Position numbers and translations under genes: made by a program. The notes beneath the pieces are model-generated. The model was not told the origin of the DNA and searched no databases. It saw nothing but the letters and a program-made list of their open reading frames with translations. A stretch of 64,000 nucleotides of DNA from Dictyostelium discoideum (taxonomy: Eukaryota), in NCBI GenBank assembly GCA_000004695.1, contig CM000151.3, forward strand, positions 5,216,001 to 5,280,000, written 5' to 3'. Below are positions 32,288 to 32,860 of this stretch, in pieces. Position 1 is the first letter of the stretch, and every line of letters begins with the position of its first letter.

Positions 32288-32860
32288 AATAAAATAATAA
32301 AAGGGTTGGTGAGAGGAGAGAGGACTTGGCTTCTAATGATTGCGTTTAGCTGAGGGGTTTTTGGTAGTGTCGATTTCACTTTGTCTCATACTGATTCAAT
32401 TTTTTTAGGATTCAATCATTCAGTGATGGCTTCACTTATATGTGATTAGTGATTTATCGACAGGAAGTTTGTATACATGGTTAGTATACTATTTTTTAAT
32501 TTTTGTTTTTCTTTTGTCGAGTTTTTTTTTTTATTTTTTTATTTTATTCGGTGGACGTGTTTTTTTAATGAGAGGATGATTGATTCTATTTCATATCATA
32601 TCCAGACTCTGTGTTTATATTATTAACGGTGACACGCTCGTCTTTTGTCACTGTCTAATATACTATTCATATTAGACACATTTAAGGTTGATAATATTTT
32701 TAACCAACGTCCACCACAAACCCCCTCCGCTATCAAAGATCATTGTTTGGTAAGTCTTAATATTTTTAATCGATGTATAACTAATACTTTTATGCACTGT
32801 ACACACCATTCCTTTGTAAACTTCTCTCGCCACCCAATTTAATACTACTATTATAATCAT
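32288..32860. other. GC-enriched (~38-40% GC), homopolymer-poor non-coding island without a sustained ORF; candidate structured ncRNA gene or transposon/viral relic.
   Basis: The composition break is sharp against flanks that are over 85% A+T. The island is rich in G/C-containing words (gggttggtgagaggagagaggacttggcttc, ggtggacgtg, cggtgacacgctcgtc, ccaccacaaaccccctccgc). Stops occur in all frames within 70 codons. There is a GTAAGT-like site at about 32750 but no acceptor/ORF continuation that I could make code. Confidence 0.4.

What the first reader, a model, noticed from the sequence alone, without database searches (positions are those of the whole stretch)
32288..32860. ~570-bp GC-enriched, ORF-less island: candidate ncRNA gene or mobile-element/organellar relic
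Every other GC-elevated patch in this window corresponds to an exon of a recognisable gene. This one does not. It has stops in all six frames, no poly-A/T runs, and no codon-bias periodicity. It also has several internally complementary G/C-rich words (for example ggttggtgagaggagagagg near 32305 and ccaccacaaaccccctccgc near 32712), as expected for a structured RNA. It lies 600 bp upstream of the KAR gene and 700 bp downstream of the P2X cluster. It does not match the snRNA or tRNA sequences I know, so I cannot classify it.
Basis: seen in the sequence. Interest (0 to 1): 0.6.

Follow-up and report, generated by a model that had tools for sequence, protein, structure and literature searches.

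The report
Unclassified structured RNA gene in Dictyostelium
The GC-rich, ORF-less island is most likely a stand-alone gene for a roughly 535-base folded non-coding RNA, read from the minus strand from the promoter element typical of Dictyostelium small-RNA genes, conserved in all nine genome assemblies examined (the window plus eight close relatives) and matching no RNA family in Rfam 15.

Summary
Window 32288-32860 has 31-33% GC against 21.6% overall. Of 26 GC-elevated patches in the window, it is the only one without a long open frame.

It is most likely a non-coding RNA gene on the minus strand, about 32838 to 32303 (c. 535 nt).
- A perfect DUSE promoter motif (TCCCATAA, 32900-32893) lies about 63 nt upstream. 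It is invariant in all nine genome assemblies of the D. discoideum species complex that I examined.
- In every assembly the conserved block starts about 60 nt after the DUSE and stops at a run of T.
- The block is clearly better conserved than its intergenic flanks.
- In D. dimigraforme exactly the DUSE-to-T-run unit is inverted while the flanks are not.
- The RNA folds far better than shuffles (z = -7.1). The consensus fold has 113 pairs, 96% kept. Nine pairs show compensatory double changes, against 0-1 in slid controls.

Rfam 15 gives no match, so RNase P/MRP, SRP, U3, 7SK, Class I and telomerase models all fail. No second copy was found. No homologue was found at three D. purpureum loci.

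Function is inferred only: probably a Pol III-type scaffold RNA of a ribonucleoprotein. The telomerase-RNA idea fails a template test in D. firmibasis. Expression is untested, and I could not check dictyBase or Larsson et al. 2008.

The parts
32893..32900 (-). DUSE (Dictyostelium upstream sequence element), TCCCATAA. It lies about 63 nt upstream of the predicted RNA 5' end.
   Evidence: It matches [AT]CCCA[AT]AA exactly. The motif and its ~60-63 nt distance are described in PMC3188802 and PMC7919456. TTCCCATAA is invariant in all nine assemblies while the surrounding bases vary.
32858..32870 (-). Conserved A/T box CAATTAATTAATG, about -33 to -21 from the predicted start. It is a TATA-like candidate promoter element.
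   Evidence: Alignment A2 shows it largely conserved. The function is inferred. The region is AT-rich anyway, so this is weak evidence.
32303..32838 (-). Predicted mature ncRNA, about 535 nt. The 5' end is known to +/-3 nt. The 3' end may carry up to 4 U from the terminator.
   Evidence: The conserved block starts and ends at the same points in all assemblies. The MFE is -122.5 kcal/mol, z = -7.1 against 100 shuffles. The consensus structure has 113 pairs.
32284..32302 (-). T-rich stretch immediately after the RNA (TTTTATTATTTTATTTTTT on the minus strand). It is a candidate Pol III terminator.
   Evidence: Every orthologue has a T run (T5 to T>30) directly after ...CCAA(A)CC(C). PMC7919456 discusses T-runs as a Pol III termination signal for DUSE genes.
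32821..32835 (-). 5' strand of the closing helix (GGGUGGCGAGAGAAG). It pairs with 32302-32318.
   Evidence: Helix 1 has 13 pairs, 96% of cells paired, and only one-sided changes (G-U/G-C, A-U/G-U).
32302..32318 (-). 3' strand of the closing helix (CUCCUCUCACCAACCCU). It is part of a 13-nt C/U tract.
   Evidence: The tract contains CUCUCUCCUC, discussed under the telomerase reading.
32772..32807 (-). 5' hairpin (helices 3 and 4). It is almost invariant in sequence over about 45 nt.
   Evidence: Two pairs are broken and a T5 run is created in assemblies L001 and L019.
32720..32744 (-). 5' strands of long-range helices 5-7 (AAUGAU, UAGC, AGGGGGU). They pair with 32335-32358.
   Evidence: (I3, I25). 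Changes are invariant or one-sided only, so these helices are predicted but not proven by covariation.
32335..32358 (-). 3' strands of long-range helices 5-7 (ACCCCUC, GCUA, AUCAUU).
32550..32715 (-). Central domain closed by the 9-bp helix GGUGGACGU/ACGUCCACC (32707-32715 with 32550-32558). It holds hairpins 9 (32652-32678), 10 (32629-32651) and 11/12 (32574-32603).
   Evidence: Helix 8 is invariant. Hairpin 9 has 5 pairs with compensatory double changes and hairpin 10 has 1.
32490..32549 (-). A-rich linker of about 60 nt, predicted unpaired, with a conserved CUCGACAAAAG core.
32368..32489 (-). 3' domain: hairpin 13 (GUAUAC/GUAUAC, 32471-32489) and a branched stem (helices 14-18, 32368-32462). 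The invariant strands CACUGAAUG and CAGUAUGAGA face each other.
   Evidence: Helix 14 has 1 compensatory pair and helix 18 has 2. In D. firmibasis the tip hairpin has a different sequence but still forms a hairpin.

Best explanation
**What it is.** It is an independent non-coding RNA gene on the minus strand of D. discoideum chromosome 2, between a P2X receptor gene and DDB_G0275049.

**How it is made.** A DUSE element at about -63, possibly helped by an A/T box near -30, recruits the snRNA-type transcription machinery. Transcription starts near 32838 and ends at the T run that begins at 32302. The most likely enzyme is RNA polymerase III.

**The product.** The RNA is about 535 nt long and folds into a closed architecture:
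- its 5' and 3' ends pair;
- a nearly invariant 5' hairpin follows;
- a long-range stem leads into two multi-hairpin domains joined by an A-rich linker.

**What it does.** I infer that it acts as the stable RNA scaffold of a ribonucleoprotein. Its invariant loops and internal loops would be protein-binding sites, and its paired ends plus U tail would protect it from exonucleases.

**Shown versus inferred.**
- Shown here: promoter motif, distance, boundaries, conservation, synteny, fold and covariation.
- Inferred: transcription itself, the polymerase, the exact ends and the scaffold role.
For: Identity of the locus:
- The window's KAR protein is 307/307 identical to DDB_G0275049 of AX4.

Promoter:
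- TCCCATAA at 32900-32893 (-) matches the published motif and lies 65 nt from the first G of the conserved block.
- It is invariant in nine assemblies: AX4, two other D. discoideum, two D. cf. discoideum, two D. citrinum, D. dimigraforme and D. firmibasis.

Boundaries:
- nhmmer aligns model positions 2-538 in every orthologue.
- The block is followed by a T run in each orthologue.

Selection:
- Identity to AX4 is 92.6/90.4/85.2/74.0% in the element, against 75.6/65.7/36.1/42.6% in the left flank and 81.6/74.6/67.0/55.0% in the right flank (L001/L006/L005/L004).

Unit of function:
- In D. dimigraforme only the segment matching 32284-32906 is inverted. The junctions sit just outside the DUSE and the T run.

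Structure:
- z = -7.1.
- 113 pairs, 96.4% of cells paired, against 29-45% when partners are slid.
- 9 pairs with double changes, against 0-1 when slid and 0/500 shuffles. With nine sequences there are 10 such pairs.

Not coding:
- The longest ORF is 65 aa, and there are frame-breaking indels.
- No gene is called there in seven of the eight annotated assemblies. In the second D. citrinum locus (L017) the gene call furthest upstream was not placed relative to the element.
Against: - No expression data could be consulted.
- The DUSE octamer is not enriched in the window (9 matches against 23 expected). Its weight comes from position and conservation only.
- Folding does not discriminate the strand: alifold gives -95.2 against -93.9 kcal/mol for the reverse complement.
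- The long-range helices show no compensatory double changes, only invariant or one-sided ones.
- The absence of internal T4 is not significant (22.5% of shuffles). Two assemblies carry a T5 inside the 5' hairpin. This weakens the Pol III argument.
- No homologue was found outside the D. discoideum complex, though only three D. purpureum loci could be searched.
- The scaffold function is inference by analogy.
Confidence: 0.75

Rival explanations
1. It is the missing telomerase RNA (TERC) of Dictyostelium. In this reading a DUSE/Pol III-type gene, like the USE-driven telomerase RNAs of plants and ciliates, has a C/U tract near its 3' end that templates the A(G)n telomere repeats.
For: - TERC is not known in D. 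discoideum (PMC6592521).
- Telomeres are A(G)1-8 repeats whose maintenance depends on the TERT homologue (PMC6912284).
- Type-3 promoters were used to find plant and ciliate telomerase RNAs (PMC12133305).
- The AX4 RNA has a 13-nt C/U tract, CCUCUCUCCUCUC. Its 10-mer CUCUCUCCUC is the exact complement of GAGGAGAGAG in the D. firmibasis telomere-associated repeat (PMC11193728).
- The size and the closed multi-domain fold are compatible.
Against: - In D. firmibasis, where repeats are reported (GAGGAGAGAGTCCCTTTTTTT and GGGGAGAGACA), the orthologous RNA reads CCUCUUCUCUC. It matches the required templates over only 6 nt in the C/U tract. The best match anywhere in the RNA is a 9-nt low-complexity UCAAAAAAA.
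- The tract varies among close species by indels and substitutions.
- Half of the tract is in the closing helix.
- It sits at the extreme 3' end rather than next to a template boundary and pseudoknot.
- The other C-run (ACCCCUC) also varies and is paired.
- No Rfam telomerase model matches.
Confidence: 0.04
2. It is a conserved cis-regulatory DNA element, an orientation-independent enhancer or promoter module for the P2X or KAR genes, and not an RNA gene.
For: - It lies between two genes and is conserved above background.
- It tolerates inversion in D. dimigraforme, as enhancers do.
- There is no expression evidence.
Against: - Enhancers do not show compensatory base-pair changes (9-10 pairs) or a folding z-score of -7.
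- Conservation is continuous over 535 nt with sharp ends at a DUSE-spaced start and a T run.
- The inverted unit carries its own DUSE.
Confidence: 0.06
3. It is a relic or non-autonomous copy of a mobile element, a MITE-like element with terminal inverted repeats, or a fragment of organellar DNA.
For: - The imperfect terminal inverted repeat is GGGTTGGTGAGAG...CTCTCGCCACCC.
- GC content is above the intergenic background.
- The orientation differs in one species.
Against: - There is a single copy at the same intergenic site in nine assemblies.
- No other copy is present in the window or in about 90 kb of other dictyostelid loci.
- No target-site duplication is visible.
- There is selection on structure.
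- The conserved DUSE lies outside the inverted repeat.
Confidence: 0.03
4. It is a highly divergent member of a universal RNA family that the Rfam models miss in this AT-rich genome. The candidates are RNase MRP/P RNA, a long SRP RNA or a 7SK-like RNA.
For: - The topology of terminal helix, 5' hairpin, long-range helix, then branched domains is loosely like RNase P/MRP.
- A Pol III-type gene layout is shared with MRP, 7SK and SRP RNA genes.
Against: - No P, MRP, SRP, 7SK or U3 match even at E <= 10, either on 551 nt of the window or on the D. firmibasis orthologue.
- A D. discoideum MRP RNA with its own described structure (P3c present, P6 absent) already exists in the literature (PMC1796607).
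- No GARAR pentaloop or AnAGUnA CR-IV motif is present at the expected places (by eye).
Confidence: 0.04

Closest known systems
DUSE-dependent ncRNA genes of Dictyostelium (spliceosomal snRNAs, Class I/II RNAs; Hinas et al. 2006 as cited in PMC7919456; PMC3188802)
   Same: - It has the same upstream motif, [AT]CCCA[AT]AA, at about 60-63 nt.
- The gene is compact and has no ORF.
- A T run lies downstream, as at many Class I genes.
- The product is a GC-enriched RNA in an AT-rich intergenic region.
   Different: - It is about ten times longer than Class I RNAs (42-65 nt).
- It lacks their 11-nt CCUUACAGCAA motif and the TGTG box.
- It has no Sm-site-like element and no match to any snRNA or snoRNA model.
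- It is single-copy rather than a multigene family, as far as could be seen.
Type-3 (upstream-promoter) RNA polymerase III genes: U6, 7SK, RNase MRP, plant and ciliate telomerase RNA
   Same: - The promoter is entirely upstream: a USE-like element plus an A/T box.
- Termination is at an oligo-T run.
- The product is a structured RNA with paired termini and a likely U tail.
   Different: - The polymerase is not established here.
- At 535 nt it is long for Pol III.
- Two strains carry an internal T5.
- No sequence or structure match to any of these families was found.
RNase P / RNase MRP RNA
   Same: The order of elements is similar: terminal helix, 5' hairpin, long-range helix, branched domain.
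   Different: - No covariance-model match.
- No CR-I/CR-V, GARAR or CR-IV motifs.
- Both RNAs are already described in D. discoideum (literature; the P RNA from my own knowledge).
Telomerase RNA
   Same: - The gene layout is as in plants and ciliates.
- The size is compatible.
- It has a C/U tract complementary to A(G)n-type repeats in AX4.
   Different: - The tract is not conserved.
- It fails to match the telomere repeats reported for D. firmibasis in that species' own orthologue.
- It is partly base-paired and 3'-terminal.

Membership tests
DUSE-dependent Dictyostelium ncRNA gene | Upstream motif [AT]CCCA[AT]AA | tested here: met
   TCCCATAA at 32900-32893 (-). It is invariant in nine assemblies. 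The motif definition is from PMC3188802.
DUSE-dependent Dictyostelium ncRNA gene | Motif about 60-63 nt upstream of the transcription start or mature 5' end | tested here: met
   It is 65 nt from the DUSE start to the first G of the conserved, folded block. The true start site is not mapped, so the distance is to the conservation boundary.
DUSE-dependent Dictyostelium ncRNA gene | A stable transcript is made | not testable with these tools
   No RNA-seq or Northern data are accessible. A search for the sequence strings in the paper library found nothing.
RNA polymerase III type-3-like gene | Oligo-T terminator directly after the RNA | tested here: met
   A T4-T>30 run follows ...CCAA(A)CC(C) in all nine assemblies.
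RNA polymerase III type-3-like gene | No internal terminator-strength T run | tested here: inconclusive
   The longest T run is 3 in seven RNAs, but L001 and L019 have T5. Absence of T4 is reached by 22.5% of shuffles. The terminator length requirement in Dictyostelium is unknown to me.
Class I RNA (Dictyostelia) | 42-65 nt, short terminal stem, 11-nt CCUUACAGCAA-like motif | tested here: not met
   The length is about 535 nt, the motif is absent and there is no Rfam match. The features are from PMC3188802 and PMC7919456.
RNase MRP RNA | Match to the family covariance model; P8 GARAR loop; CR-IV AnAGUnA just before 3' P2 | tested here: not met
   No RF00030 hit at E <= 10 in AX4 or D. firmibasis. 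The motifs were not seen at the expected positions. A distinct D. discoideum MRP RNA is already described.
RNase P RNA (nuclear) | Match to the family model; CR-I and CR-V forming P4 | tested here: not met
   No RNaseP_nuc hit at E <= 10. The nearest resemblance, ACGCAAUCAUUAGA, departs from the CR-V consensus I recall from memory and varies between species.
Telomerase RNA | Single-stranded template complementary to more than one telomere repeat, conserved among species sharing that repeat | tested here: not met
   The D. firmibasis orthologue matches the templates required by its reported repeats over 6 nt in the C/U tract, and over at most 9 nt of low complexity elsewhere. The tract varies among species and is partly paired.
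Telomerase RNA | Pseudoknot/triple helix and a TERT-binding stem-terminus element; association with TERT | not testable with these tools
   Pseudoknots were not modelled. No binding data are available.
Transposable element (MITE/thug/DDT-like) or mtDNA relic | Multiple dispersed copies; target-site duplication; match to an element consensus or to mtDNA | tested here: not met
   There is one copy per locus and none elsewhere in the window or the fetched loci, and no duplication at the ends. Comparison with Repbase consensi or mtDNA was not possible with these tools.
SRP RNA, 7SK, U3 and other snRNA/snoRNA families | Match to the family covariance model | tested here: not met
   The only hits are chance-level: SNORD127 at 20.9 bits on the wrong strand, and CRISPR repeats. 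Nothing in the whole window reaches gathering score.

The most novel reading that the evidence does not exclude
This RNA is the long-sought telomerase RNA of Dictyostelium. In this reading a DUSE/Pol III-type TERC uses its 3' C/U tract (CCUCUCUCCUCUC in AX4) to template the irregular A(G)n telomere repeats. That would extend upstream-promoter, Pol III-type telomerase RNAs from plants and ciliates to Amoebozoa. The evidence disfavours it, because the template is not conserved and does not match the D. firmibasis repeats. It does not strictly exclude it, because Dictyostelium telomere repeats are irregular and poorly characterised.
Probability: 0.04. Interest if true: 0.9.

Novelty: new member of a known kind. 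Interest (0 to 1): 0.55.

Why it matters
Dictyostelium is a model organism whose catalogue of larger structural RNAs is thought to be nearly complete (snRNAs, SRP, RNase P/MRP, snoRNAs, Class I).

If this is an expressed 535-nt RNA with a conserved promoter and fold and no family assignment, it would be one of two things:
- the RNA subunit of a particle whose RNA is still missing in this lineage, with telomerase the obvious gap; or
- a lineage-specific ribonucleoprotein.

Either can be tested directly. The gene is single-copy, compact and has a defined promoter. A DUSE deletion or CRISPR knockout and an RNA pull-down are therefore straightforward.

It also shows that GC islands without ORFs, combined with a DUSE at -63, find ncRNA genes in this AT-rich genome.

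Tried and rejected
- **Protein-coding micro-gene.** Rejected: the longest ORF is 65 aa, and indels between species break frames.
- **Repeat or transposon within the window.** blastn of the element against the window found only T-rich low-complexity hits. nhmmer found one copy per locus.
- **Rfam.** I ran four scans: 1.4 kb at E <= 10, the whole window at gathering score, 551 nt at E <= 10, and the D. firmibasis orthologue at E <= 10. None gave a meaningful hit.
- **U3-like box A.** AAGACUUACC...GAUCUUUGAUAG resembles the U3 5' end as I remember it. However, the AAGACUUACC part lies in the least conserved stretch, is deleted in D. firmibasis, and no U3 model hit exists. Rejected.
- **Telomerase template on either strand.** See the telomerase rival.
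- **Homologues in D. purpureum.** The KAR locus (L003) and both P2X loci (L007, L008) gave no nhmmer hit. P2X-KAR adjacency appears limited to the D. discoideum complex, because the two genes lie on different contigs in other dictyostelids.
- **Metagenome scan.** A two-block pattern returned 8 GC-rich contigs (57-67% GC) that the element profile does not match, so they are chance hits.
- **AX4 annotation.** The look-up of the AX4 protein found no record.
- **Literature.** Two papers likely to bear on prior knowledge (Aspegren et al. 2004; Larsson et al. 2008) are not held. A search for the sequence strings found nothing.
- **Strand from thermodynamics.** Not decisive.

Full report
**1. The observation**

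The window is Dictyostelium discoideum AX4-type DNA. The spliced product of the gene starting at 33449 is 307/307 identical to DDB_G0275049.

The flagged stretch has 31.4% GC, and its core (32302-32840) has 32.8%. The window as a whole has 21.6%, and the neighbouring intergenic DNA 13-19%.

I scanned the window with 400-nt windows at GC >= 0.29 and found 26 GC-elevated islands. Twenty-five contain a stop-free stretch of at least 117 codons. The island at 32238-32952 reaches only 69. The longest ORF that overlaps it is 65 aa.

Two details are wrong.
- The island does contain homopolymer runs: a T11 run and a 60-nt T-rich stretch on the + strand.
Each pairs elsewhere.

**2. Related sequences**

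The neighbouring protein gave access to the syntenic locus in eight other assemblies:
- two further D. discoideum;
- two D. cf. discoideum;
- two D. citrinum;
- D. dimigraforme;
- D. firmibasis.

Every one of them has one copy of the element between the P2X gene and the KAR gene. Protein-coding gene calls overlap the element in none of the assemblies where I could place them. In the second D. citrinum locus (L017) the gene call furthest upstream was not placed relative to the element.

Identity to the window is higher in the element than in either flank:

| Locus | Element | Left flank | Right flank |
|---|---|---|---|
| L001 | 92.6% | 75.6% | 81.6% |
| L006 | 90.4% | 65.7% | 74.6% |
| L005 | 85.2% | 36.1% | 67.0% |
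| L004 | 74.0% | 42.6% | 55.0% |

In D. dimigraforme the flanks are colinear with the window, but the segment matching 32284-32906 is inverted. Its junctions lie in homopolymer tracts immediately outside the two features described next. This natural rearrangement delimits a self-contained unit of about 615 bp.

**3. Anatomy**

On the minus strand the unit begins with TCCCATAA (32900-32893). This is an exact match to the Dictyostelium upstream sequence element, [AT]CCCA[AT]AA. That element sits about 60-63 nt upstream of many ncRNA genes in this group and is associated with both Pol II and Pol III genes (PMC3188802; PMC7919456).

The octamer alone is not rare: there are 9 matches in the window against 23 expected. 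Here, however, TTCCCATAA is invariant in all nine assemblies while adjacent bases vary. It also lies 65 nt before the first G of the conserved block.

A partly conserved A/T box (CAATTAATTAATG) lies at about -33 to -21.

The conserved block runs from about 32838 to 32303. In every assembly it ends ...CCAA(A)CC(C), followed directly by a T run of T4 to more than T30.

No comparable promoter is conserved on the other side, so the plus strand has no candidate promoter inside the unit. Folding energy does not decide the strand. The strand call rests on the promoter and the terminator.

**4. Structure**

The minus-strand RNA folds at -122.5 kcal/mol against -85.1 +/- 5.3 for shuffles, z = -7.1.

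RNAalifold on six orthologues predicts 113 pairs in 18 helices. In RNA order these are:
- a closing helix between the two ends;
- a nearly invariant 5' hairpin;
- a three-part long-range stem;
- a 9-bp helix (GGUGGACGU/ACGUCCACC) that closes a central domain with three hairpins;
- a 60-nt A-rich linker;
- a small hairpin;
- a branched 3' domain (coordinates).

Across sequences 96.4% of cells are standard pairs, against 29-45% when partners are slid by 1-3 columns. Nine pairs carry changes on both sides, against 0-1 in the slid controls and 0 of 500 shuffles. With nine sequences there are ten such pairs.

The compensatory changes lie in hairpins 9, 10 and 18 and in helix 14. The long-range helices are invariant or change on one side only, so they are predicted rather than proven.

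In D. firmibasis the tip of the 3' domain has a different sequence that still forms a hairpin.

**5. What it is not**

- *Not coding.* See sections 1 and 2, and the frame-breaking indels.
- *Not a repeat.* Nothing but low-complexity T tracts matches elsewhere in the window. A profile of the element finds one hit per locus and none in other fetched DNA.
- *Not any Rfam 15 family.* Four scans, including permissive ones on just the RNA and on the most divergent orthologue, give only chance-level hits. This speaks against RNase P, RNase MRP, SRP, U3, 7SK, Class I and the telomerase families.
- *Not the known MRP RNA.* A D. discoideum MRP RNA with its own described peculiarities already exists (PMC1796607). 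The MRP hallmarks listed there, a GARAR loop and the CR-IV motif, are not evident here.

**6. The telomerase idea**

This reading deserves attention for three reasons:
- TERC is unknown in Dictyostelium (PMC6592521);
- telomeres are A(G)1-8 tracts maintained by a TERT homologue (PMC6912284);
- upstream-promoter genes encode telomerase RNA in plants and ciliates (PMC12133305).

The AX4 RNA does carry a 13-nt C/U tract. Its CUCUCUCCUC is the exact complement of part of a telomere-associated repeat reported in D. firmibasis (PMC11193728).

The test fails where it can be made. The D. firmibasis orthologue reads CCUCUUCUCUC. It matches the templates required by that species' repeats over only 6 nt in this tract, and the best match anywhere is 9 nt of low complexity. 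The tract also varies among close species, is half buried in the closing helix and lies at the extreme 3' end. I give this reading about 4%.

**7. Most likely mechanism**

- *Shown:* a conserved DUSE at the canonical distance, sharp conserved boundaries, a T run at the 3' end, purifying selection, a significant fold, and compensatory changes.
- *Inferred:* the unit is transcribed from the DUSE, probably by Pol III, into a stable RNA of about 535 nt. Its paired ends and U tail protect it. Its invariant loops and internal loops bind proteins, so it would be the scaffold of a ribonucleoprotein.

The Pol III assignment is only moderately supported. The lack of internal T4 is not statistically unusual, and two non-AX4 assemblies share a T5 inside the 5' hairpin. 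I put the probability that this is a real, independently transcribed ncRNA gene at about 0.75-0.8. The specific cellular role is open.

**8. Limits**

- I could not see expression data, the AX4 ncRNA annotation, or two papers that may already list this locus.
- I could not search whole dictyostelid genomes. Three D. purpureum loci chosen by synteny were negative, and a metagenome scan gave only chance hits.
- The gene may therefore be confined to the D. discoideum complex, or it may simply lie elsewhere in other species.

**9. Verdict**

The mobile-element or organellar half is not supported. It is a new member of the known kind 'DUSE-driven Dictyostelium ncRNA gene', it is unusually large, and it has no family assignment. 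Interest is moderate to high, pending an expression check and a look at existing annotation.

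Noticed in passing
L002 4700-5314 (D. dimigraforme), matching window 32284-32906: The whole RNA gene unit, DUSE to T run, is inverted relative to the colinear P2X and KAR flanks. Both junctions lie in long homopolymer T/A tracts.
   Followed up: partly
L005 about 1905-3893 (D. citrinum): About 1.7 kb of extra DNA lies between the P2X gene and the RNA gene. It includes a called 248-aa gene with no Pfam hit and is absent from the window and the other species. It may be an insertion or a lineage-specific gene.
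   Followed up: no
L001 and L019 (non-AX4 D. discoideum assemblies), matching window about 32774-32778: Both share GTTTTTCATCG in place of GTTATACATCG. This creates a T5 run and breaks two pairs of the otherwise invariant 5' hairpin. It is a real lineage variant rather than an assembly error, because it appears in two assemblies.
   Followed up: partly
window 32309-32321 (-), C/U tract CCUCUCUCCUCUC: The tract contains the exact 10-nt complement of GAGGAGAGAG from the D. firmibasis telomere-associated 21-mer. The RNA 5' end, GGCGAGAGAAG, in turn resembles the G-strand repeat GGGGAGAGACA. This is probably a low-complexity coincidence.
   Followed up: yes
window 51060-51067 (-): A second exact TCCCATAA lies inside a GC-rich, coding-like stretch with no RNA-gene features downstream. 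It is a chance match.
   Followed up: yes
window 32574-32678 and 32471-32495 (-): Three invariant loop or flank segments share a similar word: UGAAUAGUAU, UGAAAUAGAAU and AAAUAGUAUAC. They may be repeated protein-binding sites or traces of internal duplication.
   Followed up: no
window 31690-31790 and 31890-31950, 33080-33400: The intergenic DNA around the element is dominated by very long poly-T/poly-A tracts (up to about 60 nt). This is typical of the genome. These tracts coincide with the breakpoints of the D. dimigraforme inversion.
   Followed up: no
(contig lengths of the hits): P2X and KAR genes lie on different contigs in D. purpureum, P. violaceum, T. lacteum and C. fasciculata. The P2X-RNA-KAR arrangement therefore appears specific to the D. 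discoideum species complex.
   Followed up: partly
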